Assembly (NCBI GenBank): GCA_020848665.1
Contig: JADLHR010000385.1
Coordinates: 1 to 32,615 of the forward strand
Reading direction: 5' to 3'
Source: Anaerolineae bacterium
Lineage (GTDB): Bacteria > Chloroflexota > Anaerolineae > Aggregatilineales > Aggregatilineaceae
DNA: 32,615 bases
This document shows positions 3,023 to 25,904 of this stretch, piece by piece (position 1 is the first letter of the stretch; the number at the start of each line of letters is the position of its first letter). A program made the translations under genes and the position numbers. The notes beneath the pieces were generated by a model. The model had not been told where the DNA came from. It ran no database searches and was given only the letters and a program-made list of their open reading frames with translations.

Positions 3023-3024
3023 CC

Positions 3025-3354
3025 ATGCAGGAGATCTACCTCGACACCGTGGACCTGCCGAAGATCGAGCTCGAGCAGATCGCCACCATCGTCTACGACG
3101 GTACCGAGGACGATCGGCAAAAGGCCATCGTCGGTGCCGTCACCAGGATGGCCGCCGAGCAGTCGGACCAACCGCAGCTCGCCGTGACAGTGCGCGTGAT
3201 GCGCTGCGCCTGCGCCAACCAGGATTGCGGGTCCGGCATGCTGTTCTGCGAGATGGGCCGGCCCCGTGAGCCTGCGACGTGGTTCGGCATGTTCCGCCTG
3301 GTCGCCGCCACCAGTCGCCACGACGACCGTCCGCCGCCGAGCCTACCGCACTGA
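3025..3354 (+). CDS. Hypothetical phage protein (109 aa) with a Cys cluster, CACANQDCGSGMLFC
   Basis: ATG 3025 is preceded by AAAGGAG (3011-3017). The track ORF begins at 2965, which remains an alternative start. Confidence 0.5.
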   Translation: MQEIYLDTVDLPKIELEQIATIVYDGTEDDRQKAIVGAVTRMAAEQSDQPQLAVTVRVMRCACANQDCGSGMLFCEMGRPREPATWFGMFRLVAATSRHDDRPPPSLPH

Positions 3355-3357
3355 CCC

Positions 3358-3831
3358 ATGCCGCGCGCGAAGATCCCGTTCACGCCGGCGCACCTCGAGC
3401 TGGCCCGCAAGGTCGCCAAGCTCGGGGCGATCGATGCCGAGATCGCCGATTGCCTGGGCGTGAGCCTGCGCACGTACTGGCACTGGCGCGCCGAGCACCC
3501 GGAGCTCGCGCGCGCCGTGAAGCTTGGGAAGGCTGAGCCCGATGCGCGGGTCGAGCGGTCGCTCTACCAGCGCGCGGTGGGCTACGTCGCGCCCGAGACG
3601 GTGATCCACCAGATGCCGGATCGGGTCGGCAAGAACGGTCGGGTGATCAAGGGTCGCACCGTGCAGACCGAGGTGCTGCGGCAGTACCCGCCCGACTCGG
3701 TTGCCTGCATGTTCTGGCTGAAGAACCGGAAGCGCGGTGAGTGGTACGACATCAAGGCGGTGGAGCTCGGCAACCTCGGGGGCAACAGCTTCCGCGTGTC
3801 GCTGCTGCCGGAAGATGGGCAGGTGCTGTGA
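3358..3831 (+). CDS. terS: Terminase small subunit (HTH type)
   Basis: N-terminal HTH (IADCLGVSLRTYWHWRAEHPEL), then ERSLYQRAVGY and PPDSVACMFWLKNRKRGEWYD, a pattern typical of phage TerS. Lies directly upstream of, and GTGA-coupled to, terL. Confidence 0.8.
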   Translation: MPRAKIPFTPAHLELARKVAKLGAIDAEIADCLGVSLRTYWHWRAEHPELARAVKLGKAEPDARVERSLYQRAVGYVAPETVIHQMPDRVGKNGRVIKGRTVQTEVLRQYPPDSVACMFWLKNRKRGEWYDIKAVELGNLGGNSFRVSLLPEDGQVL

Positions 3832-12915: not shown

Positions 12916-14445
12916 GTGCCCGACTTCGCCGGCTTCGTGGGTGACGCCTACACCGCGCCGTCCATCACGCAGGACGCGCAGGCGACCGAGAACTGGTATC
13001 CCGAGGTCGATCCCTCCAAGCCGCAAGGATCGCGCGGCGTGGTGGCACTCTACCCGACGCCGGGGATGATGCTGCCGCCCTGGCCTGGTTGGCAGTTTCC
13101 CGGGATGATCGACGACCGCTCCGGCCCCATTCGGGGACTCTTCGAGCTACCCAGCGATCGGGGGGTGCTGATCATCCTCGGCAACACCTGTGTGTTGATG
13201 CGAATGACGCTGTTCATTCCGAACAGCATCTATCCGCCGTTTCTGCAGAGCGCGGGCGTGGGCAGGCTGCGCACCTCGAGCGGACCGGTGACGATCACCA
13301 GCAACGGCACCCACTGCATGATCACTGACGGGGTGGACCGCTATGCGTACGACATCGCGGCAAACACCATCGTCCGACTGACGGACGGGCCGCGGCCAGG
13401 TGGCGTGCGGTGCGACATCACCGACAACTTCATGGTCTACAACCTGGCCGACTCCAAGCAGTGGGCCGCGACCAGTGTGCTGTCAACGTCCACGCCCGCG
13501 CTGTCGTTCGCCTCGACCCTCAGCAGTTTCGATGACCTGGTCGCGCTGATCGTCGACCAGCGGCAGGTCGCACTCCTGGGCGAACAGACGATGGAGTTCT
13601 GGTCTGACGTCGGATCGTTCCCGTTTCCCTTCGGCATCATCGACGGGACCACCCGACAATTCGGTTGCCTTGCGCCCTACTCGGTGGCCCGGTTCGGCGA
13701 CGGGTTCGCCTTCCTCGGCCGCGATCAGCTCGGCCGGGGCGTGGTGCTCTACTGCGCGCACTACCAGATCGAGCGGATCAGCACGCATGCGATCGAGCAG
13801 GACCTCATCGGCCAGGCGCTCAATGATGCCTTCGCGTTCACCTACCAGCTGGCGGGCCACGTCTTCTACGTGCTGCAGCTGCCGACGGCCGATCGGACCT
13901 GGGTCTACGACCTCTCCACGAAGATGTGGCACCGCCGGACGTCTATGGGGCCGGACGGCAGGCTGCATCGCTGGCGCGTGAATGCGGTCGCACAGTTCGA
14001 AGGCGAGCTGATCGCTGGCGACAGCGAATCGGGCACCCTCTACTACCTGCGCAACGACTACCCGTGGGACGACCCGCCGATGCGTGTCACCGGCCCGCAG
14101 GGTGCTCGCCGCGCGATTCGCCGGATGCGCTGCAGCCCCCACGTCACGCGCGAGTTGAAGCGCGTGTTCTTCCACTCGCTGCAGATCCAGTTCCAGCCGG
14201 GCGTCGGCATCCCCAGCGGACAGGGCGCCGATCCGCAGGCCATGCTGCGATATTCGGACGACGGGGCGCACACCTGGTCGGAAGTGATCACCACGCCCAT
14301 CGGCCGCATGGGCGAATACCAGGCGCGCGCGATCTGGCGACGGCTGGGCGCGGCGCGCGATCGCGTCTTCGAGGTCAGCGTCACCGATCCGGTATACGCG
14401 CCGATCATCAGCGCCAACCTCGAGTTCTCGGAAGGGGCGTCCTGA
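12916..14445 (+). CDS. Tail accessory factor / packaged-DNA stabilisation protein, P22 gp10-like
   Basis: 509 aa. The C-terminus YQARAIWRRLGAARDRVFEVSVTDPVYAPIISANLEF parallels the P22 gp10 end RVLWKRVGRIRRLIGFKLRVITKSPVTLSGCQIRLE. GTG start with RBS GGGAGG. Confidence 0.72.
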   Translation: MPDFAGFVGDAYTAPSITQDAQATENWYPEVDPSKPQGSRGVVALYPTPGMMLPPWPGWQFPGMIDDRSGPIRGLFELPSDRGVLIILGNTCVLMRMTLFIPNSIYPPFLQSAGVGRLRTSSGPVTITSNGTHCMITDGVDRYAYDIAANTIVRLTDGPRPGGVRCDITDNFMVYNLADSKQWAATSVLSTSTPALSFASTLSSFDDLVALIVDQRQVALLGEQTMEFWSDVGSFPFPFGIIDGTTRQFGCLAPYSVARFGDGFAFLGRDQLGRGVVLYCAHYQIERISTHAIEQDLIGQALNDAFAFTYQLAGHVFYVLQLPTADRTWVYDLSTKMWHRRTSMGPDGRLHRWRVNAVAQFEGELIAGDSESGTLYYLRNDYPWDDPPMRVTGPQGARRAIRRMRCSPHVTRELKRVFFHSLQIQFQPGVGIPSGQGADPQAMLRYSDDGAHTWSEVITTPIGRMGEYQARAIWRRLGAARDRVFEVSVTDPVYAPIISANLEFSEGAS

Positions 14446-14864
14446 TGCCGCGCCCGAGCGTCCCGTTCTCCCGCTTCGTCGACAGCCTGGGCAACATCGC
14501 CCGGGAGTGGCGCGACTTCCTGGTGCCATCGATCGCCGATTGGTCGCCGGCCGGAAACGGTGTCTCATTCGCCTCTGCGGCGGGCACGTTCGTGCGCCGT
14601 GGCCAGCAGATTGACGTGTACTTCGATGCCACCTGGCCGGTGACCGCTGACGCATCGGCCGCACGAATCGCTGGCCTGCCCCATCCGGTAGGCGTGCGCC
14701 ACGGCGGGCTGTCGGTGGCGTACAGCAACCAAGGCGCGGCACTGACCGCCGTCGCACAGCCGGGCACCACGTACGTCGAGCTCTTCAGCATCGCCGGTGC
14801 CCTGTTGACCAACGCCGCCCTGTCCGGAAAGCGGCTGATCGCCTCGGGAACCTACCTCCTATGA
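14445..14864 (+). CDS. Small tail-associated protein (139 aa), at the position of the P22 needle gene but with no coiled coil
   Basis: TGATG coupling upstream and ATGA coupling downstream. Beta-rich sequence. Confidence 0.5.
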   Translation: MPRPSVPFSRFVDSLGNIAREWRDFLVPSIADWSPAGNGVSFASAAGTFVRRGQQIDVYFDATWPVTADASAARIAGLPHPVGVRHGGLSVAYSNQGAALTAVAQPGTTYVELFSIAGALLTNAALSGKRLIASGTYLL

Positions 14865-15778
14865 ACGCTCCGATCCACCTGCAGGCGCTGGCAGACCCGT
14901 ACGCCACCAAGACCCTCACGGTGCTGCGCGATGTCGTGCTGGCCGGTGACCTGGATCTCCTCGAGGACGTGATGCTCGAGCAGCCCGACCAGGCGCCGTG
15001 CGACGTCGTGCATCGGTTCGGACCCGGGGTGTACATCCGCGAGCTCACGATGTTGGCCGGGACCATGGCCATCGGCCACCACCAGCGTTTCCGACACGTG
15101 AACATCGTGCTGAAGGGTCGGGTGACGGTGGTCGATGCCGACGGCGGCCTGCGCGAGATCGTGGCGCCGCATTTCTTCGTCGGCGAGCCGGGCCGCAAAG
15201 TCGGCTACGTCCATGAGGACACGGTGTGGCAGAACATCTATGCCACGACGGAGACCGACGTCGGGCGGCTGGAGGCGATGCTGCTGCGCCAGTCGCCGAT
15301 GTTCCTGCGCCACCAGCAGCGACGCGCGGCGATCGCGCTCACCCATGAGGCCGACCGCCAGGACTTCGAGTCGGTGCTCACCGAGACCGGCATTGGCGCC
15401 GAGCAGGCGGCCGCCGAAACCGAGAACGAGGACGACCAGATCCCGTTTCCGGACGGCAGCTACGCGGTGCGCGTGGCGGCCTCGCCGATCCATGGCCAGG
15501 GCCTGTTCGCGACCAGCACCCTGCAGGCGGGCGACCTGATCGCACCGGCGCTGATCGACGGCCGACGCACGCCGGCGGGTCGCTTCACGAACCAATCGGT
15601 GACGCCGAACGCGCTGATGCTGCCGCGGCCCAACGGCGACATCGACCTGGTCGCGCTGGCGCCGATCGAGGGTATGCGCGGCGGCCAGCTCGGCGACGAG
15701 ATCACGATCGATTATCGGGTTGCGCTGGCGCTACAGGATCACCTGCGGCTCGCGCCGCCGTCCGAGGTGACGGTATGA
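14861..15778 (+). CDS. Cupin-like N-terminal domain fused to a C-terminal SET domain (putative protein lysine methyltransferase)
   Basis: SET motifs in the canonical order: SPIHGQGLFATSTLQAGDLI, GRFTNQSVTPNA (compare RFINHSCxPN) and GDEITIDYR (compare ELTxDY). The N-terminal part has beta-barrel/His-cluster features (IGHHQRFRHVNIVLKGRVTV). Confidence 0.7.
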   Translation: MNAPIHLQALADPYATKTLTVLRDVVLAGDLDLLEDVMLEQPDQAPCDVVHRFGPGVYIRELTMLAGTMAIGHHQRFRHVNIVLKGRVTVVDADGGLREIVAPHFFVGEPGRKVGYVHEDTVWQNIYATTETDVGRLEAMLLRQSPMFLRHQQRRAAIALTHEADRQDFESVLTETGIGAEQAAAETENEDDQIPFPDGSYAVRVAASPIHGQGLFATSTLQAGDLIAPALIDGRRTPAGRFTNQSVTPNALMLPRPNGDIDLVALAPIEGMRGGQLGDEITIDYRVALALQDHLRLAPPSEVTV

Positions 15779-16602
15779 GCGCCATCTCTGCTGCCGTCGT
15801 TGGCAGCGCTGTTGTCAGCGCCTACTCGGGCAACCGCGCGGCAAACACGCAGGCCGCCGCTGCGCGCGATGCGTCGGCGCAGCAGATCTACGCGGCGAAC
15901 CGCTCGGCGGACCTGCAGCACGATGCGACCATCCGCGGCCAGAATCTGCAGCGTGAGATGTTCGATCGGGCGGCCGGGTATTCGCAGCCGTACCGCGAAC
16001 GGGGCGCCCAGGCCATAGAGACCCTCTCCGGCGAACTGAGCAGCGGGCAGTTAAGCAAGAACTTCGACGCTTCGATGATGGCGCAATACGCGCCGGCCTA
16101 TCAGTTCCAGCTCAAGCAGGGCCTGGGTCAAGCTGAGAACATGGCCAACCGCATGGGCGGGCTCGTCGGCGGCAACGCGCTGCAGGGGTTGAACACTTAC
16201 GCGCAAAACTACGCTCAGACCGCGTACCAGCAGGCATTCAGCAACTATCAGACCGAGCAGGCGAATCGGTATTCGCGCCTGATGGGCGTCGCGCAACTCG
16301 GCCAGAACGCCGCGGCAGGCACCGGCTCGGGCGCCATCGCTACCGGTCAGAGCATGGCGAACCTCGGCCTGGCCGGCGCCCAGGGGATGAGCAACTCTTA
16401 CGCCACGGGCGCCAACAACGCCTCGGGCTATCTGACCTCGGGCGCCGCTGCGCAGGCCGCCGGCCAGGTAAGTGTGGGCAACTCGCTGTCGGGCGGCCTG
16501 AACAGCTATCTCGGCTGGAACTATCTGTACGGCCGTCCGGGAGGCGCGTCCGCCGCGCCGGCCACCACGACGATGCCGGGATCGTTGTCTCTGAACCAGT
16601 GA
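15775..16602 (+). CDS. Internal virion / ejection protein (first of three)
   Basis: 275 aa, Gly/Ala/Gln/Asn-rich and low complexity. The position matches the P22 gene 7-20-16 block. Confidence 0.55.
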   Translation: MSAISAAVVGSAVVSAYSGNRAANTQAAAARDASAQQIYAANRSADLQHDATIRGQNLQREMFDRAAGYSQPYRERGAQAIETLSGELSSGQLSKNFDASMMAQYAPAYQFQLKQGLGQAENMANRMGGLVGGNALQGLNTYAQNYAQTAYQQAFSNYQTEQANRYSRLMGVAQLGQNAAAGTGSGAIATGQSMANLGLAGAQGMSNSYATGANNASGYLTSGAAAQAAGQVSVGNSLSGGLNSYLGWNYLYGRPGGASAAPATTTMPGSLSLNQ

Positions 16603-16608
16603 CGCGCC

Positions 16609-18153
16609 ATGCCGCTTGATCCGAGCATCCCGCTGCAAGCCAAGGCCCCTGACCCCCTTCAGACGATGGGGCAATGGATCGGTCTGGCGCGCCAGAAGCA
16701 AGCGCTTGAGCGCGAGACGGCGACGCTGCCGACCGACATCGAGAAGAGCAAGGCCGAGTCGGAGCGGGCGCGGATCGACGCCGAGAAGGCGCGCCGTACG
16801 CTGGACGACTACATCCGCCAGCAGCGAGCCACGGCCGAGTCGGCGGAAGCCGCGGCGAAGGTAGCCTCCGGCAGCGCCGAGGCCGACATCGTAAAGCGCA
16901 AGGCAGAGTCAGGAAAGGCTGTCACCGAGGCGGAGAAGGCGAAGTTCGGCCTGTCCACCGACTACATGAGCGTGCTGCGCGCCAGCAGGGACCGATTCCT
17001 GGCCGACGAGCGGTTCGATCCGGATTCGCCGAAGTTCGATCGTCGGGCGATGCTGGAGGCCATGGCCGACGCGCGTGATGAATCGATCCGCGCAGGCGCG
17101 CCGCGTCATCTGGCTGAGGAACAATTCGCGATCAGCATGGCGCAGGCAGCCCAGGATCCGCGGACTTACCGGCAGACGATGCAAAACAGTATCGTGGCCG
17201 GCAACAACTCAGCCGGTCAGGCGCAACTGGCCCAGCCCGTCGGCATCCAGACGAACAGCGGCCAAGTCACGCAGGTGGTCAACGCGAATCGGTTCGCCGG
17301 GCCCGTGGGCCAAGCCATCCAAGGCACGCGGACGCAGCAGCAGCCGCCGCCGACCACGCAGGTGTTCTATGACGATGGCGAGGGCGGCGGCCGGATGGGC
17401 CTGTATGGGGCGCAGGGCGGCGGCGTGCGCCCAGCGGCACCGCAGCCGATGCCGGGCGCTCCGCGGATCGCACCGGCCGGCGCAGGAGCGCCCGCGGCCC
17501 CGGCTCAGACCCCGCCGCCGCGCAGCTTCGTTCCGTCCGGCCCGCCTATGGGTGCCGAGGCCAACATGCAAGGTCAGGTGCAGGTGGTGCAGGCCGACCG
17601 AACGGCCACCGCCAGCGCGGCTGCTTTCGCCGAGCAGAACAAGGCGACGCTTGCCAAGATCCGCGAGATCGTCACGAAAGCGCCAACTGGCGTCGGAGCC
17701 GACAAGCAGGCATTCGCCGCAGGCCTCGGCGCATTGATCGGCATGGAGTCGGGCGACGAGAAGAAGTCGGCCGCGGATCTGCTGAACAAGTACTCTGCGC
17801 AGTTGCAGGCGCTGACCGGCGGTAACACCGACATGGCGCGCTCAATCGTCGAAGCGGCCATTCCGAACAGCAAGATGACCGATACGGCCATCCGGAAGGT
17901 GGCCCGTGAGTTGACCGCAGTCCAAGACATGGCGCTGGCCAAGCAGCGGTTCCTGGCGCGCGTCGAGCACAACCCTGTGCAGTATCGAGAGCAACTGGCG
18001 ATCTTCAATCGCGTGGCGGACCCGCGGGTGTTCCAGTTCCCGACGATGAACCTGAAGGAACAGGCCGCCCTGCGCAAATCGATGACACCGGCCGAGCGTG
18101 GCGAGTTCGAGGCGAAGCTCGAGGCGGCCGAACAGTTCGGCCTGATCCGGTGA
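16609..18153 (+). CDS. Internal virion / ejection protein (second of three)
   Basis: 514 aa. Charged helical N-terminal region and a Pro/Ala/Gly-rich centre. Assigned by synteny. Confidence 0.55.
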   Translation: MPLDPSIPLQAKAPDPLQTMGQWIGLARQKQALERETATLPTDIEKSKAESERARIDAEKARRTLDDYIRQQRATAESAEAAAKVASGSAEADIVKRKAESGKAVTEAEKAKFGLSTDYMSVLRASRDRFLADERFDPDSPKFDRRAMLEAMADARDESIRAGAPRHLAEEQFAISMAQAAQDPRTYRQTMQNSIVAGNNSAGQAQLAQPVGIQTNSGQVTQVVNANRFAGPVGQAIQGTRTQQQPPPTTQVFYDDGEGGGRMGLYGAQGGGVRPAAPQPMPGAPRIAPAGAGAPAAPAQTPPPRSFVPSGPPMGAEANMQGQVQVVQADRTATASAAAFAEQNKATLAKIREIVTKAPTGVGADKQAFAAGLGALIGMESGDEKKSAADLLNKYSAQLQALTGGNTDMARSIVEAAIPNSKMTDTAIRKVARELTAVQDMALAKQRFLARVEHNPVQYREQLAIFNRVADPRVFQFPTMNLKEQAALRKSMTPAERGEFEAKLEAAEQFGLIR

Positions 18154-20240
18154 TGGGTAAGTACTCGGATCAGTTCCGCTCGCTCGGAGCCGGAGAATCC
18201 GAGATCCGCGATACCGCGAACCGCGGGTATGCAGCTCGCTTTCGCGCACTGGAAGAGTTCGACGAGCGAATCAGCAAGGCCGCCGAGGCACCGGAGGGCG
18301 GCACGTCGACGCCGCAGCAGCCGAAGAAGCCGCGCAGCACCTGGGAGAAGATCCTCGGCATCCCCGATGCCGCCCTGACGATCGGCACCGGCATGGCGTC
18401 CGGCCTGATGGGCGCCGGCGCCGGCATTCTCGACAACATGCTGTCGGGCACCTGGGGCACCCGCGAAGGCACGCAATTGGCGGAGCGTACCGCCGGCCGG
18501 GTGATGGAGCGCAACACCTGGACGCCGCGCACCGAGGCGGGCCGGGAGTATGCGGAGACCGTAGGTCGCGCCTTGAACGATTCCGGCATCGTCGCGGTCG
18601 CTCCGATGATGGATGTCGTCGGCGCCGTTCCGCATGGTGTGCAGGCCCAGCTCGCCGCTCAGTTTGGACGCCTGCGCGGTCGCGCGCCGTCGGTCCGCGC
18701 TGCGGATATCCCGCCGCCGGAGGCGCCCCCGAACGTCGGGATCAACCCAGGCGGGATGCCGTCATCACCAGGCGGTGCTGGGGCCACCGCTGATGCCGCC
18801 GCGGCGACGTCAACCGGCGCACGCATCGCTGAACTGCCGGGCGCTGGCGGCGCGCCCACGGCGCCGCAGCCGACAGTCCCTGCAGTTCGCCAGGCGGTGA
18901 CGCGTGCGGAGCGCGAGGGCCGCACGGTGAACACCGACGCGCTGACGCGTCAGGAACGGGCGGGCTCGCTGCCCGTTCCGATCGATCTGACGCGCGGCCA
19001 GGCGCTGCAGGATCCGGCGCTGATCTCGATGGAGCGCAACCTGCGCTCGCGCAATCCGGCGTTGGTCGAACGCTACGGCGCGCAGAACCGTGCGCTACAG
19101 GCCAATGTCGATCAGATGCGCACCACGGCCGCTCCCGACGTGATGATCGAGAACCCGACCGCCGCGGGCCAGGCGCTGGTGGAACGCATGGCCGGCCGTC
19201 AAGCCGAGCGCGCGGCCGAGACGAGTGCCGCCTATCAAGCACTGCGCGATGCCAACGCCGGGGCGCTGCCGCTGGATGGCGCCACGTTCGGCGCCGAAGC
19301 GGGCCGAGCGCTCGAATCGAACATGAAAGGGGCGTTTCTCCCGTCGTCCGTGCAGTCGATCGTCGAGCAGTTCGCCAGCGGCAAGCGAGCGATGACCTTC
19401 GAGAACTTCGAGAATCTCCGCACGATCCTCGCGAGCGAGGCCCGCAAAGCCCAGCGATCGGGCGACGGCAATGCAGCGGCGGCCATCCGCTCTGTGCGCG
19501 ACACGCTGGAGAACATGCCGATCAGCTCCGAGGTCGCAGAGGTCAAGGCACTGGCCGACCGAGCCCGTGCCCTGGCGCGTGCCGAGTTCGCCCGCGAAGA
19601 GGCGATGGCCGGCTACGGCGAGGTGGCCGCCGGCAGCGCGGCGGCGGACACCTTCGTGCAGCGCCATTTCATCAACCGCCGCGACACCAAAGCGGTGGCG
19701 CGCGAGTTGGCGGACCTCGATCCGGAATCGCAGCAGATCGTCCGCGCCGAGGTGATCAATCACCTCCAGCGCCAAGGCACTGACTCCTCGCGCAACTTTA
19801 ACTCGTCGGGCTACAACCGGGCGCTGAACGCGCTCGGTACGCGTCTGGATGCCATCTTTCCAGCCGAGCAGGCGGCGCAGCTCCGCGCCATCGGCCAGGT
19901 TGCGCGCGACATCGATGCGCAACCCAAGGGCGCCTGGGTCAACAACTCGAACACCAGCGTGGCCGAGCTCGCGCGAGAGGGGCTGGCCTCGTCGGTCGAG
20001 GCGGCTGCCAACGCGAAGACCGGGGGCATCGGCGGCACGATCATGCGCGGCAAGTTCAGCGACATGTTGAACAGGAAGCGGCTGGCCCGGGAGAACGAAG
20101 CGATCCTCGGGCCGGGAGCCGGCATTGTCGGGGAGTCGACCGCGAAGGCGCGCCGCGGAGGCGCGCCGGTGCTGCCGGCCGTTACCACGCCAGCACAATC
20201 GTCAGGCGCAATGCGCGAGCGTCAGAAAGCGGACCAATGA
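18150..20240 (+). CDS. Internal virion / ejection protein (third and largest)
   Basis: 696 aa. Start is GTG 18150 (GTGA overlap) or ATG 18153. Assigned by synteny with P22 gene 16. I saw no enzymatic motif. Confidence 0.55.
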   Translation: MMGKYSDQFRSLGAGESEIRDTANRGYAARFRALEEFDERISKAAEAPEGGTSTPQQPKKPRSTWEKILGIPDAALTIGTGMASGLMGAGAGILDNMLSGTWGTREGTQLAERTAGRVMERNTWTPRTEAGREYAETVGRALNDSGIVAVAPMMDVVGAVPHGVQAQLAAQFGRLRGRAPSVRAADIPPPEAPPNVGINPGGMPSSPGGAGATADAAAATSTGARIAELPGAGGAPTAPQPTVPAVRQAVTRAEREGRTVNTDALTRQERAGSLPVPIDLTRGQALQDPALISMERNLRSRNPALVERYGAQNRALQANVDQMRTTAAPDVMIENPTAAGQALVERMAGRQAERAAETSAAYQALRDANAGALPLDGATFGAEAGRALESNMKGAFLPSSVQSIVEQFASGKRAMTFENFENLRTILASEARKAQRSGDGNAAAAIRSVRDTLENMPISSEVAEVKALADRARALARAEFAREEAMAGYGEVAAGSAAADTFVQRHFINRRDTKAVARELADLDPESQQIVRAEVINHLQRQGTDSSRNFNSSGYNRALNALGTRLDAIFPAEQAAQLRAIGQVARDIDAQPKGAWVNNSNTSVAELAREGLASSVEAAANAKTGGIGGTIMRGKFSDMLNRKRLARENEAILGPGAGIVGESTAKARRGGAPVLPAVTTPAQSSGAMRERQKADQ

Positions 20241-20438: not shown

Positions 20439-21050
20439 ATGCCTAACGTCAGTATCGCACCCGGTTTGGGGATTGGCTACCAGGGGCTGCTGCCGAACGG
20501 CCGGCCGAACAATGCCGGGCGGCTGCGCACGTTCCAGGCCGGGACCACCACGCCGATCGCCACCTACACGAACCAGGCCGGCACGATCGCCAACGCCAAC
20601 CCGATCGTGCTCAACGCGGACGGGCGCCCACCGCAGCCGATCTGGCTCGACAACGCGCTGCTCTACAAGTTCCAGCTCGAGGACGCCGCCGGCAACGTGC
20701 TGGCCACCTTCGACAACATCGAGCCGTCCGCCAGCGCCGCCGGGCTGGGCGGCAACACTGGCCCGGCGTTTCTCGCTCAGCGCGCGGTGCCGGGCTACCA
20801 GTGGCTGCCAAGCGGCATCCTGATCCAGTGGGGCGCCACCGTCGGCATCGCGTCGAGTGCGAATCTGGTCTTTGCGCTGCCGGTCGCCTATTCCAACGCG
20901 CTGCTATCTGCAGTGGTGACGCCGCTCGGAACAGGCAACAGCGCCACCCCCGTGTCCGGAGCCATCGAGCTCGTCAACGCGGGCACGGTCCGGATCTACA
21001 ACAAGTCGGCCACGAGCGAAGCCTTCACCTGGCTCGCCATCGGCTACTGA
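20439..21050 (+). CDS. Tail fibre protein (short)
   Basis: The N-terminus GRLRTFQAGTTTPIATYTNQAGTIANANPIVLNADGRP...YKFQLEDAAGNVL is the common phage tail-fibre/tailspike N-terminal pattern. The C-terminal part looks like a small receptor-binding knob. RBS GGAGGG. Confidence 0.7.
   Translation: MPNVSIAPGLGIGYQGLLPNGRPNNAGRLRTFQAGTTTPIATYTNQAGTIANANPIVLNADGRPPQPIWLDNALLYKFQLEDAAGNVLATFDNIEPSASAAGLGGNTGPAFLAQRAVPGYQWLPSGILIQWGATVGIASSANLVFALPVAYSNALLSAVVTPLGTGNSATPVSGAIELVNAGTVRIYNKSATSEAFTWLAIGY
20451..20479 (-). promoter_or_regulatory. Candidate sigma70-type promoter for the inverted membrane-protein gene
   Basis: On the minus strand: TAGCCA (20479-20474), a 17-nt spacer, then GATACT (20456-20451), about 30 nt upstream of ATG 20419. 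Each hexamer matches consensus at only 4 of 6 positions. Confidence 0.25.
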
Positions 21051-21065: not shown

Positions 21066-21434
21066 ATGCCTTCTGTCAACGCCGGACCCGCGTCGACCAC
21101 CACCCAGAACGTCCAGGCCATGATGGGCGTGGCCGCGGGAATGACCACGCCGATCACCCGATCGGCTGAACAAGGTCTGCGAGGGGACGAGAGCGGCGCC
21201 ATCATCGTGACGACCGACGCGGCGCCGACCACGCTGTACGTGATCGGCAAGATCCAGTCTGGCTGGAACGCCATGGTGATTCAGGGAGGCGCTGGACAGA
21301 TCACACTCGCGGGCGCCGCCGGCGTCACGCTGCTGCAAGCTGCCGGGCTCGCGGCGACCGCAGCCCAATACAGCGGCGTATCGCTATACGCCATTGCTGA
21401 CGACCAGGTCGTGATGGCCGGTGATATGCAATGA
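21066..21434 (+). CDS. Hypothetical tail-cluster protein (122 aa)
   Basis: RBS GAGGAAAG. ATGA coupling to the next gene. Confidence 0.5.
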   Translation: MPSVNAGPASTTTQNVQAMMGVAAGMTTPITRSAEQGLRGDESGAIIVTTDAAPTTLYVIGKIQSGWNAMVIQGGAGQITLAGAAGVTLLQAAGLAATAAQYSGVSLYAIADDQVVMAGDMQ

Positions 21435-23674
21435 GCTACGCGATTCCCCCGCTCCGCGCCTGGCAATCCGGCTCTCAGTCGTTTTGGAACAGGCGGCTGT
21501 TCTGGTCGGAAGAGGAGTACGAGGCGGCGCCGGGACGGAATAAGACGCTGCTGGACGCCGCCGTCATGTCGGCACTTGGCTTCACGTCGAGCGGCGGCGC
21601 CAACGGCACGGCGGTCGACAGTAGCGGCAATCTCGTCGCTGCATCGGCGCCGCGCATCACGCACGAGCGCGGGGCGACACACTGCTTGACTCAGTGGACT
21701 TCCAGCCTGGCGCAATTGTATCCGGCTCTGGTCACCACCGCTGGACAGTTCAAATCGCCTGACGGGCTGGCAACGCTGCAACTGGCCACGAGCCCTGTCA
21801 GTTACTTCAACCTCAACGCGGGATTCACGGCGCTCAGCAACACTTGCACGCTGGTGGCGTACATCAAGCGCGGCAGTTTCGACTACGACGCCGCCTCTAA
21901 GTATGGTTTTTACAACAGTGCCACTAGCCTGGACATCGGCTACGCAGCACCGAACTACTCGACCGGGAAAATAGAGGCGATCCAGAGCTTAGCCGGCACG
22001 ATCACGGCTCGGACGGAGCCGATGGGCAACGGCGTGTTCAAGCTGATCGTCACTGCGACGGGGGGAATGTCGGCCGGCGACCCGTGTTTGGTGTATGCCG
22101 GGGCGACAGGGGGCGTCGTGGGGCCTGGGCACCAGCATTGGACGAGCGCGTGCCACGTCAACGACGGGCCGTTGCCGCTGCCGTTCCTCAACACGTTTGA
22201 CACTCGTCCGCTGTTCAGCGCCGGCACGCCGATGCGGCAGAACCTGTTCGCCACGACGGATCTGACGAATCTGACGCAGTTCGGCCGAAATGGCGTCACG
22301 CCCTCGGCCCTCGGCGCTGTCGGTCCGGGAGGCGCTCCAGCGTATCGGCTGACAAAGGACGACGCGTTGGGAAGCCGCTCGCTGTGGGCGCACAACGATA
22401 CTCTGCCAAGCCTCGTGGCTGGATGCGTGAATACGCTTTATCTTGCGCTGCGCGGCGGGACGATAGCGGACGTGGGCATGCTCAGCAACGCGGGCTGGTC
22501 AGCAGTGCGTGCTGAGATCGTGTCGGGACCGGGAACGGTCAATAGTAATGCGTTGCCGAGAATCGACGGACTGCAGTCTGGGCAATGGACCATTGTCCGC
22601 ATCCGCAACGTGCCGGCCGACCTTGTCAGCTGGGGCGGTCTATACATCTACCCCGGCGGCGCAGGGCCTGATGGCGCGGGAAGCTATATCGACGTGTCGA
22701 CTGTGATGCTTCACGAGGGCACCGCCGATCTGTCATTCGAGCCCGATCCGATCTCCGTCTACCCGCAAGCCGCCCTCCTCATCGAGCCCGCCCGCACGCG
22801 CGAGACGCTGTATCCGCGCGACCTGACGCAAGCGGCGTGGGTCAAGAACAACATGACGGCCACGAAGACTGCCGTCGGCACTGATGGCGTGGCGAACAGC
22901 GCAAGCACGCTGACCGCATCGGCGAGCAACGGCACATGCCTGCAAAGCGTCACCAGCGCCAGCGCCAATCGCGCCTTCGGCCCGCACATCCGGTCGCGCA
23001 GTGCTGCCTCTCTCATCCTCGATTTGACGTGCGACGGCGGAACGACGTGGCAGGCCGTGACGGCCAATGCGGCATGGATGCCGTACAGCGCGCTCAAGGC
23101 AAGTGTCACGAATCCGAGCTACGGATTTCGGCTGCGCAGTAGCGGCGACAGCATTGACGTGGATTGGGCGCAGGGCGAAATCGGGGACTTCGCCACGTCA
23201 CCGATAGGCGGCACAGAGAGCGCGGCGCAGACGCGGAGCGTCGACACCATCGGCACGCCCGCTGACTGGATCAGCGATGCGGCGGGTACGGTCGCAGCGA
23301 CCTTTGTGGCGCCGATTGACGTGTCGGGATACCCGGCTGTGGTGGGCACCCCGGGCAGCGCGATGCCGGTCTATGTGAGCGCCACGCGAGCCGTGGGAAT
23401 ATTCGACGGTCTGAGTCTCGCCGGGGCTGTTGCAACAGTCGCAGGCAACGTGTATCGAGCAGCTTCGAATTGGGGCACTGGCGTGATAGGTATCAGTGTG
23501 GACGGCCTGCCAGTAAACAGCGATGTGTACGACGGCACGATGGGCTCGTCCCTGTACCTCGGACGGACTGGCGGGGGCAATATCCTCGGCAGCGGCATTC
23601 TCGCGCTCGAACTCTCGGGCACGAAGGCAACCGACGCCCAGCTCCAGCTTGCCTCTCAAGGCTTACTTCCATAA
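21431..23674 (+). CDS. Large tail fibre / host-specificity protein with repeated jelly-roll (ConA/LamG-like) modules
   Basis: 747 aa. Module boundaries such as AALLIEPARTRETLYPRDLTQAAWVKNNMTATKTAVGTDGVANSASTL resemble phage receptor-binding proteins. Third-position GC is lower than in the core genes. Confidence 0.6.
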   Translation: MSYAIPPLRAWQSGSQSFWNRRLFWSEEEYEAAPGRNKTLLDAAVMSALGFTSSGGANGTAVDSSGNLVAASAPRITHERGATHCLTQWTSSLAQLYPALVTTAGQFKSPDGLATLQLATSPVSYFNLNAGFTALSNTCTLVAYIKRGSFDYDAASKYGFYNSATSLDIGYAAPNYSTGKIEAIQSLAGTITARTEPMGNGVFKLIVTATGGMSAGDPCLVYAGATGGVVGPGHQHWTSACHVNDGPLPLPFLNTFDTRPLFSAGTPMRQNLFATTDLTNLTQFGRNGVTPSALGAVGPGGAPAYRLTKDDALGSRSLWAHNDTLPSLVAGCVNTLYLALRGGTIADVGMLSNAGWSAVRAEIVSGPGTVNSNALPRIDGLQSGQWTIVRIRNVPADLVSWGGLYIYPGGAGPDGAGSYIDVSTVMLHEGTADLSFEPDPISVYPQAALLIEPARTRETLYPRDLTQAAWVKNNMTATKTAVGTDGVANSASTLTASASNGTCLQSVTSASANRAFGPHIRSRSAASLILDLTCDGGTTWQAVTANAAWMPYSALKASVTNPSYGFRLRSSGDSIDVDWAQGEIGDFATSPIGGTESAAQTRSVDTIGTPADWISDAAGTVAATFVAPIDVSGYPAVVGTPGSAMPVYVSATRAVGIFDGLSLAGAVATVAGNVYRAASNWGTGVIGISVDGLPVNSDVYDGTMGSSLYLGRTGGGNILGSGILALELSGTKATDAQLQLASQGLLP

Positions 23675-23683
23675 GGACTCAAA

Positions 23684-24103
23684 ATGGACCAATACAAATC
23701 AACAGACCTCACCGCCGAAGCTCGGCCCCGAGTCGCTGAACTCCGCATCAGCTTCCCTCACGGTGCCGCTCCCGGTGTGACCACTGTGCTCGAAGAAGAA
23801 CTGACGTTAAGCGACGGTCGGGTCTTCTATAACGGCATACCAGCCATCGGTTCGGCCGTCGCTGCCGACGACGTGATTTACGAACTGCATCACGAAACCC
23901 GTGCCCCTACCGGCAACAAGATGGCGATGGCTGAGTTCCTGAACTGGGCAGCGTCGTTCGGCATCACGCAGCATGCGCGACGAGTCGATTCGAAGGCGGT
24001 CGCCGCCATGCTGCCGGTCAAAGACCCCTCGATTCCGAGCAAACCGATGCCGGCCGAGGCCACCGAAGCCATTCGTTCGGGTGGGACGGATGTCTTCCGC
24101 TAA
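23684..24103 (+). CDS. Hypothetical protein (139 aa), compositionally atypical
   Basis: RBS AAGGA. Many A/T-ending codons (caa, aaa, tca, aca, gaa, tta, tat, ata). Confidence 0.5.
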   Translation: MDQYKSTDLTAEARPRVAELRISFPHGAAPGVTTVLEEELTLSDGRVFYNGIPAIGSAVAADDVIYELHHETRAPTGNKMAMAEFLNWAASFGITQHARRVDSKAVAAMLPVKDPSIPSKPMPAEATEAIRSGGTDVFR

Positions 24104-25904
24104 CAGCGGTCCGGCCAGCAGTGGCGGCAATCCGGGGCCGGCAGTCGACACGCCACAGAATTCGTTCGCATACCCGATCTATTCCGGCGTCTCCGACAGC
24201 GGCCGGCCGGTCTATCCCGGGAACCCGGGCGATATCGTCAAGAACTTGACACAGCAGCTGCTTGGCCCGCCCGGCGGCCAGTACGTGCTTGACAGCTGGC
24301 AGTGGTTCGGCGATCAGTGGGTCGAGCGCTACGTGCCGATCGGCGAGCCCGCGACCACCACGGGCGATGTGACCGTCATCGACTCGACGGGCGCAAACCG
24401 CGGCGCCGTGCAGACGATCAAGGTCCTCGGCAACTTCACCGTCGTGAACGGCGTGCTGACGCTGGATCTGACGCAGGCGGCCTCCGGCACCGGCGGCACT
24501 GGCACCGGCACCGACACCGGCGACAACACGCAGAACCCGCCCGGCACGATCGCGACGCCGGCATTCGATGCGCAGACGCTGAGCGCCGTGCTCGCGGCAA
24601 TCGCCTCCGGTGCCGCAGGCTCCAAGCGCCTGGCGGGCTGGACGCAGTTCTCGTCGATCCTGGGCGGCTCCTGGAACGTGGTGCTGCGCCAGGACGGCAC
24701 CGTGCGTTATCGCGCGAAGTACACCGCCGCGATTACGCCGGGCGCGACGCTCACCGCCCCCCAGGTGCCAAACACCGTCACGACGAACAGCACCGCCGAC
24801 TTCAATGTCGGCACCTGGACGCTCGCCATTGAGAAGGACGGCGACGCGAGCCGGTTCCTGTTGGCGACCGCCGGCGCCACCGGCGGCGGCAAGCAGGTCA
24901 CGTTCGCCGCCAACCTCGACAACAGCAAGAGCGTCGATCTGAGCCAGACGGTGTTCACCTTCCCCGAGGCGCTGGACATCACCGCGTCCGCGACGCGGCT
25001 GTCGGTCAGCGACCCGCGGGTGCTGTCGATGATCGATCCGTCGCAGCCGTGGAACTCGTCGATCGCGGGCACGAAGTACGATCACCGGATCCAGGCGGAT
25101 CGGCAGTACACGGCTTCAGCCCAACTGACGACGGCCGGCACGACCTGGGGCAACATCACCACCGTTCGAACCCCCAGCTCGATCACGTGGAACGGGTTCG
25201 ACATCCTGCGGCGCAATGCCGTGGACCCAGGCGGCCAGCCGGGCGCCAGCTTCTACATGGCGCTGCACCCGCCGGTCGCCTGGGATGCCGATCCCACCAC
25301 GGCGCGCGCGATCCTGAGCTGCTTCGGCGAGACGGTGGACTACGACACGCCGTTCCGGTGGGCGTTCTCGGTCGAGCCGCGCGCCAGCTCGATCGGCCCG
25401 AACATCGCGTTCAACATCGCGAACTGCCACTACGGCGGCGATGCGCCCGGGAATCAGCAGCCGTTCGACATCCTGATCGGTGGCAACGGCAAGCTGCTGC
25501 TGTCGGTGACCTGGGCCGCCGACAACGTGCCGGCGAAGGGCGGCCAGCAGCAGCGCTGGGACGTGCCGCTGCTCGACTACTTCCTGCAGGTCGGGCACCG
25601 GTACTACTTCGAGATCCGCTGCCGGATCAAGAACGACGGCACCGGCTATCTGCAGATCCGGATTCGCGATGGCCTGGCCGGCACGGTCACGCTGTGGGTC
25701 AACCACGTCGGACCGCTCGGCTGGCCCGGTGGTACGAGGAAGTTCGGGCCGAAGTGGGGCCCGTACGACTACAGCGATCCTCACGTGCTGTTCTGCGAGA
25801 TCGACAGCGACGGCAGCGTCGTGGTGCTCGACCGCGAGCAGCCCGGCTACCCCTCCCTCACCACCGCGATCTTGATGGACACGGTCGCCTACTACGGAAC
25901 CTGA
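24090..25904 (+). CDS. Tail fibre/tailspike-like protein with a C-terminal jelly-roll domain, possibly polysaccharide-lyase-like
   Basis: 605 aa from ATG 24090 (the track ORF begins at 23973, inside the upstream gene). The Gly/Thr linker GTGGTGTGTDTGDN separates the N- and C-terminal regions. C-terminal pattern: HRYYFEIRCRIKNDGTGYLQIRIRDG...LWVNHVGPLGWPGG...KWGPYDY. Confidence 0.55.
   Translation: MSSANSGPASSGGNPGPAVDTPQNSFAYPIYSGVSDSGRPVYPGNPGDIVKNLTQQLLGPPGGQYVLDSWQWFGDQWVERYVPIGEPATTTGDVTVIDSTGANRGAVQTIKVLGNFTVVNGVLTLDLTQAASGTGGTGTGTDTGDNTQNPPGTIATPAFDAQTLSAVLAAIASGAAGSKRLAGWTQFSSILGGSWNVVLRQDGTVRYRAKYTAAITPGATLTAPQVPNTVTTNSTADFNVGTWTLAIEKDGDASRFLLATAGATGGGKQVTFAANLDNSKSVDLSQTVFTFPEALDITASATRLSVSDPRVLSMIDPSQPWNSSIAGTKYDHRIQADRQYTASAQLTTAGTTWGNITTVRTPSSITWNGFDILRRNAVDPGGQPGASFYMALHPPVAWDADPTTARAILSCFGETVDYDTPFRWAFSVEPRASSIGPNIAFNIANCHYGGDAPGNQQPFDILIGGNGKLLLSVTWAADNVPAKGGQQQRWDVPLLDYFLQVGHRYYFEIRCRIKNDGTGYLQIRIRDGLAGTVTLWVNHVGPLGWPGGTRKFGPKWGPYDYSDPHVLFCEIDSDGSVVVLDREQPGYPSLTTAILMDTVAYYGT

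What the first reader, a model, noticed from the sequence alone, without database searches (positions are those of the whole stretch)
14861..15778. Cupin + SET-domain (lysine-methyltransferase-like) protein embedded in the virion tail/ejection gene block
Position:
- The 305-aa ORF is ATGA-coupled on both sides (14861-14864 and 15775-15778).
- It lies between the gp10-like and 139-aa genes upstream and the three ejection-protein-like genes downstream.
- That is the slot gene 14 holds in the P22 order 4-10-26-14-7-20-16.

SET motifs:
- Residues ~201-287 (nt ~15461-15721) carry the three SET hallmarks in canonical order and spacing.
- SPIHGQGLFATSTLQAGDLI, with HGQGLFA at nt 15491-15511.
- GRFTNQSVTPNA, compared with RFINHSCxPN (nt 15581-15610). 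The usual His is Gln here.
- GDEITIDYR, compared with ELTxDY and its catalytic Tyr (nt 15692-15718).

N-terminal domain: residues ~48-128 look like a small cupin barrel with a His cluster (IGHHQRFRHVNIVLKGRVTV).

Why it matters:
- SET enzymes are eukaryote-type protein lysine methyltransferases.
- In bacteria they are mainly known as secreted effectors (Chlamydia NUE, Legionella RomA/LegAS4, Burkholderia BtSET). In viruses they are known from chlorella virus vSET.
- In a podovirus structural operon next to the ejected proteins, this gene could methylate virion proteins during assembly.
- It could instead be a packaged enzyme co-injected with the DNA to modify host proteins.
- I am not aware of a characterised example of either, or of the cupin-SET architecture.
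Basis: partly seen in the sequence, partly recalled or inferred. Interest (0 to 1): 0.8.

Follow-up and report, generated by a model that had tools for sequence, protein, structure and literature searches.

The report
Phage cupin plus minimal SET methyltransferase
A temperate P22-like phage carries, just upstream of its DNA-ejection genes, a two-domain protein (small cupin barrel plus an unusually short SET lysine-methyltransferase fold) that belongs to a large, widespread and uncharacterised phage family.

Summary
ORF 14861-15778 (305 aa) overlaps both neighbours by ATGA. It lies between a gp10-like gene plus a 139-aa gene and three ejection-type genes of a temperate P22-like prophage.

A confident AlphaFold model (pLDDT 92) shows an N-terminal cupin barrel, a helical linker and a C-terminal domain. 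The 50 listed PDB fold matches of that C-terminal domain are all SET lysine methyltransferases.

The architecture is not unique:
- It is PHROG 34170 (E=5e-78).
- It has 249 cluster representatives at E<=1e-30 and relatives in at least 465 IMG/VR contigs.
- It occurs in cultured phages such as Rhodoferax phage P26218 gp30.
- In 70 of 73 related loci a gp7-like ejection gene follows directly.

Three further points:
- The SET domain lacks the I-SET insert (about 7 residues where MLL1 has 42).
- The cupin alone fills the same slot in other podoviruses.
- In one prophage the two domains are separate genes beside replication genes.

GxG, Asn and the catalytic Tyr are invariant. The His-to-Gln change is private to this phage (1 of 270 sequences).

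Function is untested. My best guess is a late cytoplasmic enzyme that methylates lysines on a phage morphogenetic protein. No paper on the family was found.

The parts
14861..15778 (+). Complete cupin-SET gene, 305 aa including stop. ATGA-coupled to both neighbours.
   Evidence: phrog_34170 E=4.7e-78. AlphaFold2 pLDDT 92.1, pTM 0.88.
14882..14977 (+). N-terminal helices (residues 8-39). Variable in length and sequence across the family.
   Evidence: Secondary structure of the model. Alignment A1.
14996..15241 (+). Cupin beta-barrel (residues 46-127).
   Evidence: Foldseek PDB matches are TM1459, ectoine synthase, germin and EutQ at E about 1e-4 to 1e-5. BFVD matches are cupin-only phage proteins at about 1e-11. 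This part hits phrog_12032 at E=1.4e-27.
15059..15118 (+). Cupin motif-1-like stretch G67-x5-H73-x-Q75-x3-H79-x6-G86 (GTMAIGHHQRFRHVNIVLKG).
   Evidence: H73, Q75 and H79 are at least 90% conserved and H51 is invariant in cupin-SET proteins. The His pattern is not kept in cupin-only relatives.
15260..15424 (+). Helical linker (residues 134-188). The last two helices (about 160-188, DRxDF..L.E.G) go with the SET gene where the two domains are separate genes.
   Evidence: D165, D168, E175, G177 conserved. (L120 SET protein starts with the homologous DQIDYSRF..GL segment).
15455..15751 (+). Minimal SET domain (residues 199-283) plus C-terminal helix (285-297). No I-SET insert.
   Evidence: The 50 listed Foldseek PDB matches are all SET domains: MLL1 4e-5, vSET TM 0.59/0.65, EZH2, ASH1L, NSD. 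Profile against PDB sequences: MLL1 5e-7, vSET 3.4e-5. Pfam SET is hit by 62 of 63 family members.
15491..15511 (+). SET-N motif HGQGLFA (GxG; G212 and G214 invariant).
   Evidence: Aligned to MLL1 IHGRGLF.
15581..15610 (+). RFTNQSVTPN, the NHS/CxxPN signature motif. N244 is invariant. Q245 (CAA, 15593-15595) replaces a His.
   Evidence: 269 of 270 distinct family sequences have His and only this one has Gln. It is a single CAC-to-CAA change relative to L007. The exact protein recurs in 4 sequencing runs.
15698..15715 (+). EITIDY, the ELxF/YDY signature motif with the catalytic Tyr285 (invariant).
   Evidence: Motif definition from PMC3178901.
14445..14864 (+). Upstream 139-aa gene in the P22 gene-26 slot, coupled to the cupin-SET gene. 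No family match.
   Evidence: Conserved as a 139-aa gene in the 80%-identical relatives.
12916..14445 (+). gp10-like head-closure (Hc3) gene.
   Evidence: phrog_578 E=1.5e-86. PF11134 Phage_stabilise on the product of the corresponding gene in relatives.
15775..16602 (+). gp7-like first ejection protein (275 aa), coupled downstream.
   Evidence: phrog_598 'DNA ejection' E=3.9e-17. A homologue lies directly downstream of the cupin-SET gene in 70 of 73 related viral loci.
16609..20240 (+). Two further genes (514 and 696 aa) in the gp20 and gp16 slots.
   Evidence: Position and size only. No PHROG or Pfam hit. BLAST relatives occur in some related loci.

Best explanation
Shown:
- The gene encodes a soluble protein of two modules.
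- Module 1 is a small cupin barrel. In other podoviruses this barrel exists on its own at the same genomic slot.
- Module 2 is a helical hairpin plus a minimal SET fold. It keeps the cofactor and catalytic signature (GxG, Asn of the NHS motif, EITIDY tyrosine) but lacks the I-SET insert that normally forms the substrate groove.
- The gene belongs to a large family carried mainly by P22-like phages, in which it is almost always followed directly by the first ejection-protein gene.

Inferred:
- It is made late, together with the tail-completion and ejection proteins.
- It works in the cytoplasm of the producing cell, where S-adenosylmethionine is available.
- There it methylates lysine(s) on a phage morphogenetic protein, most plausibly one of the co-expressed internal or ejection proteins.
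- The cupin and the helical hairpin would provide the substrate docking that I-SET provides in canonical enzymes.
- It is more likely an assembly-time modifier than an injected effector.
- In this phage the private His245-to-Gln change may weaken activity. The cofactor-binding Asn and the catalytic Tyr are intact.
For: Fold and motifs:
- AlphaFold2 model with pLDDT 92 and pTM 0.88.
- Cupin matches.
- The 50 listed PDB fold matches of the C-terminal domain are all SET domains.
- Profile hits to MLL1 and vSET. Pfam SET is hit in 62 of 63 relatives.
- Invariant G212, G214, N244, E280, T282 and Y285.

Selection: dN/dS against an 80%-identical relative is 0.23 for the SET part and 0.11 for the cupin. 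Both modules are therefore maintained.

Genomic position:
- ATGA coupling on both sides.
- A gp7-like gene lies directly downstream in 70 of 73 loci.
- The same order is seen in P26218, PH1 and a Manatee Spring podovirus and in close relatives.

Modularity:
- Cupin-only proteins occupy the same slot in RSK1 and X14.
- A cupin-only protein occupies the T7 gene-13 slot of phiAp1.
- Cupin and SET are encoded as adjacent separate genes in a Paraburkholderia prophage.

Missing I-SET: 7 residues where MLL1 has 42. I-SET normally reads the substrate (PMC3178901).

Against ejection (inference): known ejection proteins must pass the tail channel. A beta-barrel plus a pseudoknotted fold is a poor candidate for that.
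Against: - No biochemical, proteomic or genetic data exist for any family member.
- The gp7-like neighbour has no conserved lysine column across 95 homologues.
- In the split-gene prophage the pair sits after replication genes, not beside ejection genes.
- In Alteromonas phage H4/4 the cupin-only gene is upstream of the portal gene.
- Loss of I-SET could mean loss of peptide methylation altogether.
- The window protein has Gln where 269 of 270 relatives have His.
- A packaged viral SET enzyme does exist: PBCV-1 vSET (PMC7019647).
Confidence: 0.4

Rival explanations
1. Non-catalytic assembly factor. The protein would be the functional counterpart of P22 gp14 or T7 gp13, helping the ejection proteins assemble. 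The truncated SET fold would serve only as a protein-binding module (a pseudo-enzyme), at least in this phage.
For: - It sits in the same slot as P22 gene 14.
- Its cupin-only relative sits in the T7 gene-13 slot of phiAp1.
- Cupin-only versions show that the SET part is dispensable for the slot function.
- I-SET is missing.
- The His-to-Gln change lies in the NHS motif of this phage.
- Pfam describes T7 gp13 as a 'probable scaffold protein'.
Against: - GxG, Asn244 and Tyr285 are invariant across the family. His245 is present in 269 of 270 sequences. Such conservation is expected only if catalysis matters.
- dN/dS of the SET part is 0.23.
- No homology to gp14 or gp13 was detected.
Confidence: 0.2
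2. Accessory enzyme aimed at a host protein in the infected cell. It would be expressed late, or from the prophage, and would methylate a bacterial target such as a nucleoid-associated, translation or defence protein. It would have no role in the virion.
For: - The split cupin and SET pair lies after replication genes in the Paraburkholderia prophage.
- cpnSET is reported to target the chlamydial protein Hc1 as well as histone H3 (PMC10117894). A cited paper title says an archaeal SET protein acts on the DNA-associated protein MC1-alpha (same call).
- The phage is temperate, with a serine integrase at 28032-29594.
Against: - In 70 of 73 loci the gene is embedded in the structural operon directly before the ejection genes, often with overlapping stop and start codons.
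- No match to defence-system models.
- No promoter or moron-like isolation was seen at this locus. It is ATGA-coupled on both sides.
Confidence: 0.2
3. Packaged, co-injected effector. The protein would be loaded into the capsid with the ejection proteins and delivered with the DNA to methylate host proteins early in infection.
For: - The gene neighbours the ejection genes.
- There is a precedent: PBCV-1 packages vSET (PMC7019647).
Against: - No virion proteome evidence was found.
- The protein is a compact beta-rich globule, unlike the low-complexity, Ala/Gly/Gln-rich gp7-like protein next to it.
- SAM is available only in the cytoplasm.
- Cupin-only relatives in the same slot carry no effector domain.
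Confidence: 0.15
4. Short tail fibre or adhesin, as the PHROG labels for the cupin-only families suggest.
For: phrog_12032 is labelled 'short tail fiber protein' and phrog_24280 'tail fiber adhesin'; both hit residues about 26-162. GenBank records carry the same labels.
Against: - The fold is a small enzyme-type cupin plus SET, with no fibre or trimeric coiled-coil features.
- A tail-fibre-like gene lies elsewhere in the window, at 20439-21050.
- The labels are carried by GenBank records, and no experimental basis for them was found in the papers read.
Confidence: 0.03

Closest known systems
PBCV-1 vSET (A612L), the 119-aa chlorovirus H3K27 methyltransferase
   Same: - A virus-encoded minimal SET domain.
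- Among the best fold matches (3kma_A, TM 0.59/0.65) and a profile hit at 3.4e-5.
- Both signature motifs and a short C-terminal helix instead of a Zn post-SET.
- vSET is packaged in virions (PMC7019647).
   Different: - vSET is stand-alone and acts on eukaryotic histone H3. Only its SET-C half aligned to the family profile.
- This protein is from a bacterial virus and its SET part is shorter: about 85-100 residues, against 119 for the whole vSET protein.
- It is fused to a cupin and a helical hairpin.
- Its substrate is unknown.
Eukaryotic SET1/MLL-type SET domains (Pfam PF00856)
   Same: - Best sequence and fold matches.
- Shared GxG, N(H)SxxPN and ExxxDY motifs in the same order.
   Different: - MLL1 has 42 residues (I-SET) where the phage family has 7.
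- MLL1 has a Zn-binding post-SET and needs WRAD partners (the Zn post-SET is stated in PMC3178901; the WRAD requirement is my own knowledge).
Bacterial and archaeal SET proteins (Chlamydia cpnSET/NUE, Legionella RomA/LegAS4, Burkholderia BtSET, Bacillus BaSET, Methanosarcina Go1-SET)
   Same: Prokaryote-encoded SET lysine methyltransferases (PMC10117894). Ordinary stand-alone bacterial SET genes were also picked up weakly in the genome scan (L121-L123).
   Different: - Those are stand-alone or effector proteins. The stand-alone bacterial SET genes picked up here (L121-L123) have about 40 residues between SET-N and SET-C.
- Most are secreted into eukaryotic cells.
- None is reported from a phage; the review never mentions phages.
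Cupin-only phage proteins (phrog_12032 and phrog_24280; Ralstonia RSK1 ORF13, Shewanella X14 gp38, Ralstonia phiAp1 gp43)
   Same: - Homologous N-terminal barrel.
- Same slot before the first ejection or internal-virion gene.
   Different: - No SET domain.
- A different His pattern in the barrel.
- Labelled tail fibre, with no supporting evidence found in the papers read.
P22 gp14 (Pfam DUF2824, 'head assembly protein') and T7 gp13 (PF11090, 'probable scaffold protein')
   Same: A small gene in the same position, between the tail-completion genes and the three ejection or internal-core genes.
   Different: No detectable sequence or profile similarity. The relation is positional only.

Membership tests
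SET-domain protein lysine methyltransferase (PF00856) | Signature motif NHS/CxxPN (definition in PMC3178901). | tested here: inconclusive
   The window has TN-Q-SVTPN. Asn, Ser and Pro-Asn are present, but His is replaced by Gln. 269 of 270 relatives have His. The cofactor's one side-chain contact is the conserved Asn, which is kept.
SET-domain protein lysine methyltransferase (PF00856) | Signature motif ELxF/YDY with the catalytic Tyr. | tested here: met
   E280-I-T-I-D-Y285. E280, T282 and Y285 are invariant in 63 sequences. It aligns to MLL1 EELTYDY.
SET-domain protein lysine methyltransferase (PF00856) | SET-N GxG cofactor motif. | tested here: met
   H211-G-Q-G-L-F-A. G212 and G214 are invariant. 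It aligns to MLL1 IHGRGLF.
SET-domain protein lysine methyltransferase (PF00856) | SET fold organised around a pseudoknot. | tested here: met
   The domain model (pLDDT 88) matches only SET structures among the 50 listed hits, with probability 1.00 and TM 0.50-0.61.
SET-domain protein lysine methyltransferase (PF00856) | Score above the Pfam gathering cut-off. | tested here: not met
   The window protein scores 16.3 bits against a cut-off of 22.4. 62 of 63 relatives hit SET at E<=0.01, best 1.4e-9, and most carry a precomputed PF00856 hit.
SET-domain protein lysine methyltransferase (PF00856) | [quoted passage not shown] | tested here: not met
   About 7 residues lie between SET-N and SET-C, against 42 in MLL1. 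Ordinary bacterial SET genes in L121-L123 have about 40.
SET-domain protein lysine methyltransferase (PF00856) | SAM-dependent methyl transfer to lysine. | not testable with these tools
   Needs an enzyme assay.
Cupin superfamily | Small double-stranded beta-helix barrel. | tested here: met
   Foldseek matches TM1459, ectoine synthase, germin and EutQ at E 3e-5 to 3e-4, probability 1.00. There is a weak phmmer hit to a Cupin_2 protein.
Cupin superfamily | Metal-binding motif 1, G(X)5HXH(X)3-4E(X)6G (from my own knowledge of the family). | tested here: inconclusive
   The spacing fits (G67-x5-H73-x-Q75-x3-H79-x6-G86), but Gln and His replace the second His and the Glu. These residues are conserved in cupin-SET proteins but not in cupin-only relatives.
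PHROG 34170 (phage cupin-SET family, unknown function) | Full-length profile match. | tested here: met
   E=4.7e-78, residues 37-290 on profile positions 25-280 of 296.
P22 gp14 / DUF2824 | Sequence or profile homology. | tested here: not met
   BLAST E=2.5. hhalign probability below 1%. Only the gene position is shared.
JmjC / 2-oxoglutarate oxygenase | JmjC-type barrel with an HxD/E...H triad. | tested here: not met
   No Pfam JmjC hit at E<=10. None of the 50 listed fold matches is a JmjC protein.
Podovirus ejection (internal) proteins | Presence in the virion and release on infection. | not testable with these tools
   No proteomic report was found for any family member.

The most novel reading that the evidence does not exclude
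Cupin-SET proteins are a dedicated virion-maturation enzyme of P22-like phages. A minimal SET domain has replaced I-SET with a cupin and helical docking module. It would methylate lysines of the internal or ejection proteins (or of another capsid-interior component) before packaging, and this modification would be needed for efficient genome delivery. This would be the first protein lysine methyltransferase with a role in bacteriophage assembly, and a SET catalytic domain shorter than the 119-aa vSET, which a chlorovirus review calls the smallest histone methyltransferase.
Probability: 0.15. Interest if true: 0.8.

Novelty: new variant of a known kind. Interest (0 to 1): 0.5.

Why it matters
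SET enzymes are known mainly from eukaryotic chromatin, from a few bacterial effectors and from chlorovirus vSET.

This work points to a large, uncharacterised phage family with hundreds of sequence clusters and cultivable members such as Rhodoferax phage P26218. In this family a stripped-down SET fold is joined to a cupin and sits almost always directly before the ejection-protein genes.

If the enzyme is active, three things follow:
- Lysine methylation would become a step in podovirus morphogenesis or host takeover.
- The family would show how a SET domain can recognise substrate without I-SET.
- It would give a function to a gene slot (P22 gene 14, T7 gene 13) that is still poorly understood.

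If it is inactive, it is an example of an enzyme fold reused as an assembly module.

The PHROG labels 'short tail fiber' and 'tail fiber adhesin' for the cupin-only relatives look unfounded and are spreading through annotations.

Tried and rejected
1. Homology of the cupin to P22 gp14 or T7 gp13.
   - BLAST and hhalign, including profiles built from 21 gp14 and 23 gp13 homologues, gave probabilities of 2% or less. Rejected.
2. P22 gp14 and T7 gp13 as GNAT acetyltransferase folds, which would make the slot a general 'lysine-modifier' slot.
   - The only GNAT matches were a profile hit for gp14 (PseH, E=0.28) and single-sequence hits for gp13 (spermidine acetyltransferases, E=0.39), both at chance level. 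The T7 gp13 family profile found no GNAT. Not supported here.
   - My recollection of the Pfam clan assignment could not be checked.
3. JmjC or 2-oxoglutarate oxygenase reading of the cupin. No support.
4. A conserved substrate lysine in the adjacent gp7-like protein. None was found in 95 homologues.
5. Other libraries.
   - NCBIfam has no model for this family.
   - PADLOC gave no hit.
6. Literature. Ten full-text searches found no paper on a phage cupin-SET protein, on virion proteomics for it, or on the role of P22 gp14.
7. Sequencing error as the source of Gln245. Rejected: the identical protein is assembled from four runs.
8. Direct inspection of the pseudoknot, of the inter-domain interface and of what fills the I-SET position.
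Full report
**Observation**

The ORF at 14861-15778 (+) is real and encodes 305 aa.
- ATGA at 14861-14864 overlaps the stop of a 139-aa upstream gene.
- ATGA at 15775-15778 overlaps the start of a 275-aa downstream gene.
- The quoted motifs lie at the stated coordinates: HGQGLFA at residues 211-217, RFTNQSVTPN at 241-250 and GDEITIDYR at 278-286.

The window has 67.8% G+C and strong third-position GC bias in the called genes. It is a temperate P22-like podovirus, with these genes:
- small and large terminase subunits, a P22-type portal, scaffold and coat;
- an Ad3-like adaptor and a gp10/Hc3-like head-closure protein;
- the 139-aa gene, then the gene in question;
- a phrog_598 'DNA ejection' protein, then proteins of 514 and 696 aa;
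- a tail-fibre-like gene, an endolysin-like gene and a serine integrase.

This order parallels P22 4-10-26-14-7-20-16.

**What the protein is**

On its own the protein only grazes Pfam SET (E=0.013, 16.3 bits, cut-off 22.4). It also only grazes MLL1 in the PDB (E=0.016). However, it matches PHROG 34170 (function unknown) over its full length at E=4.7e-78. Its N-terminal third matches phrog_12032 and phrog_24280.

Family size:
- A search of the large protein collection gave 907 homologues at E<=1e-3. Most carry a precomputed PF00856 hit, and some are named 'SET domain-containing protein-lysine N-methyltransferase' by NCBI.
- An exhaustive search of cluster representatives gave 3,492 hits at E<=0.001 and 249 at E<=1e-30. 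Nearly all of the 150 listed cover both domains.

Structure:
- An AlphaFold2 model built on 63 sequences is confident (pLDDT 92.1, pTM 0.88).
- It shows N-terminal helices (8-39), a beta-barrel (46-127), a helical linker (134-188), a second beta domain (199-283) and a C-terminal helix (285-297).
- The whole model finds only small cupins in the PDB (TM1459, ectoine synthase, germin, EutQ).
- In the viral structure library it finds cupin-only phage proteins and some 'SET domain containing' phage proteins.
- The C-terminal domain modelled alone (pLDDT 88.4) finds only SET-domain methyltransferases among its 50 listed PDB matches: MLL1, vSET, EZH2, ASH1L and NSD, with probability 1.00 and TM 0.50-0.61.
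- A sequence profile of that domain hits MLL1 at 5e-7 and vSET at 3.4e-5.
- 62 of 63 family members hit Pfam SET at E<=0.01.

**Active-site state**

A review of SET structures defines the domain by a pseudoknot fold and two motifs, NHS/CxxPN and ELxF/YDY (PMC3178901). [quoted passage not shown]

- In the family, G212 and G214 (GxG), N244, E280, T282 and Y285 are invariant.
- The His after Asn244 is present in 269 of 270 distinct sequences. The single exception is this window's protein, which has Gln.
- The change is one third-position transversion, CAC to CAA, relative to an 80%-identical relative.
- The identical protein is assembled from four sequencing runs of one project, so it is a real allele.
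- Against that relative, dN/dS is 0.22 overall, 0.11 for the cupin and 0.23 for the SET part.

The family thus looks like an active enzyme under purifying selection. Whether Gln245 weakens this copy cannot be decided here.

**An unusual SET**

In the HMMER alignment to MLL1, SET-N (profile positions 12-38) and SET-C (46-99) are separated by 7 residues. MLL1 has 42 residues there. That region is the I-SET insert. According to the same review, I-SET is present in all SET methyltransferases and acts as the reading platform for the substrate.

Ordinary stand-alone bacterial SET genes picked up weakly in the genome scan keep an insert of about 40 residues. The catalytic part here spans about 85-100 residues, shorter than the 119-aa vSET, which a chlorovirus review calls the smallest histone methyltransferase (PMC7019647).

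The high pTM suggests a fixed arrangement of the cupin, the linker helices and the SET fold. I infer that these replace I-SET in substrate binding. I could not inspect coordinates to confirm this.

**Modularity**

The cupin occurs alone in many phages.
- In the P22-like Ralstonia phage RSK1 and Shewanella phage X14 it occupies the same slot before the 'DNA ejection' gene.
- In the T7-like Ralstonia phage phiAp1 it lies between tail tubular protein B and the internal virion proteins, which is the T7 gene-13 slot.
- In Alteromonas phage H4/4 it lies upstream of the portal gene.
- Across these relatives only Y58, R60, E61 and three glycines are invariant. The His pattern of the barrel differs between cupin-only and cupin-SET proteins.
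- A conserved metal site is therefore doubtful for the broad family. H51, H73, Q75 and H79 are nevertheless well conserved among the fused forms.

In a Paraburkholderia ferrariae prophage the cupin (L120 2213-2941) and the SET module (2938-3660) are separate, overlapping genes.
- The last linker helices go with the SET gene.
- That pair lies directly after a replication-initiator gene, an unassigned 172-aa ORF and a primase/helicase gene, not next to ejection genes.
- One metagenomic relative carries an extra N-terminal domain that looks glycosyltransferase-like by eye.

**Distribution and synteny**

- At least 465 IMG/VR contigs encode relatives.
- Among the 80 best loci, 73 have room downstream. 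In 70 of those a gp7-like gene follows directly, by profile search. By BLAST alone the count is 55 of 73.
- A gp10-like gene lies within 1.5 kb upstream in 44 of 78 loci.
- Stop and start codons overlap in 14 of the 70 junctions.
- The same order is annotated in Rhodoferax phage P26218 (gp30), Pseudoalteromonas phage PH1 (gp49) and a Manatee Spring podovirus. That last gene is already annotated by similarity to the PBCV-1 enzyme.
- Isolate genomes with such prophages are Burkholderiales: Cupriavidus, Hydrogenophaga, Paraburkholderia and Burkholderia. The closest relative (80%) is in a Burkholderiaceae metagenome-assembled genome. Another 80% relative sits in a 182-kb contig with identical gene order.

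**Relation to P22 gp14 and T7 gp13**

P22 gp14 is Pfam DUF2824 and T7 gp13 is PF11090, 'probable scaffold protein'. Neither is detectably related to the cupin or to the other, even with family profiles.

Chance-level hits of both to GNAT acetyltransferases were not strengthened by the gp13 family profile. The shared feature is position only.

**Mechanism**

What is shown is a two-module protein with an apparently competent but I-SET-less SET core. It is under purifying selection, it is almost always placed before the ejection genes, and in this window it is translationally coupled to them.

My inference is as follows.
- It is a late cytoplasmic enzyme that methylates lysine(s) of a phage morphogenetic protein, possibly one of the co-expressed internal proteins.
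- The cupin and the helical hairpin would act as the docking unit.
- SAM is cytoplasmic.
- A beta-barrel plus a pseudoknotted fold is an unlikely passenger through the tail channel.

Points against this reading:
- The gp7-like neighbour has no conserved lysine.
- The split pair lies beside replication genes.
- No experimental data exist for any family member.

I give this reading 0.4. The rivals are:
- a non-catalytic assembly factor (0.2);
- an enzyme aimed at a host protein in the infected cell (0.2);
- a packaged, injected effector, as with PBCV-1 vSET (0.15);
- a tail fibre, as the PHROG labels claim (0.03).

**Novelty**

The fold families are known, and the family is present in databases (a PHROG, RefSeq names). 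Ten full-text searches found no study of it, and a review of bacterial methyltransferases does not mention phages.

I class it as a new variant of a known kind: a SET domain without I-SET, fused to a phage cupin at a conserved morphogenetic slot. This particular copy is an ordinary member apart from its private His-to-Gln change.

Interest is moderate, at 0.5. It is not low, because a cultivable model (P26218) makes the question directly testable.

Noticed in passing
L120 2213-2941 and 2938-3660 (Paraburkholderia ferrariae NBRC 106233 prophage): Cupin and SET modules are encoded as two separate overlapping genes. They lie directly after a replication-initiator gene, an unassigned 172-aa ORF and a primase/helicase gene rather than in a structural operon. 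The helical hairpin travels with the SET gene.
   Followed up: partly
L090 6953-7405 (Ralstonia phage phiAp1 gp43); L004 7815-8483; L005 7914-8474: Cupin-only homologues occupy the slot just before the first internal or ejection protein gene, both in a T7-like phage (the T7 gene-13 position) and in P22-like phages. They are labelled 'short tail fiber protein' or 'tail fiber adhesin' (phrog_12032, phrog_24280). The papers read gave no experimental basis for these labels, so they look like propagated misannotation.
   Followed up: partly
window 14445-14864: The 139-aa gene in the P22 tail-needle (gene 26) slot has no PHROG, Pfam or PADLOC match. It is conserved as a 139-aa gene in close relatives. 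P22 gp26 itself (233 aa) matches the PHROG tail-needle families (phrog_1219, phrog_1030), which this protein does not. Its role as a plug is a guess from position.
   Followed up: no
protein P0123 (545 aa, metagenomic): A relative carries an extra N-terminal domain of about 285 aa in front of the cupin-SET unit. The domain looks glycosyltransferase-like by eye (...VVDNGS...). It could be a real fusion or a gene-call artefact.
   Followed up: no
window 15775-16602: The gp7-like ejection protein is very poor in lysine (2 Lys in 275 aa here; family median 2.1%) and rich in Ala, Gly, Gln and Asn. No lysine column is conserved across 95 homologues.
   Followed up: yes
window 21431-23674 and 23973-25904: Two large ORFs (747 and 643 aa) downstream of the ejection genes have no PHROG hit, and the first has no Pfam hit either. 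They are presumably tailspike or receptor-binding proteins of unknown type.
   Followed up: no
window 28032-29594 (-): A 520-aa large serine recombinase-type integrase (phrog_95) lies at the end of the structural and lysis block. The element is therefore a temperate phage or prophage. No tRNA gene is present in the window.
   Followed up: partly
L106, L107, L110, L113, L114 (genome-contig scan): Relatives occur on short contigs binned into Bathyarchaeota, Saccharibacteria, Bacillota, Armatimonadetes and planctomycete genomes assembled from metagenomes. These are probably mis-binned phage contigs rather than true hosts.
   Followed up: no
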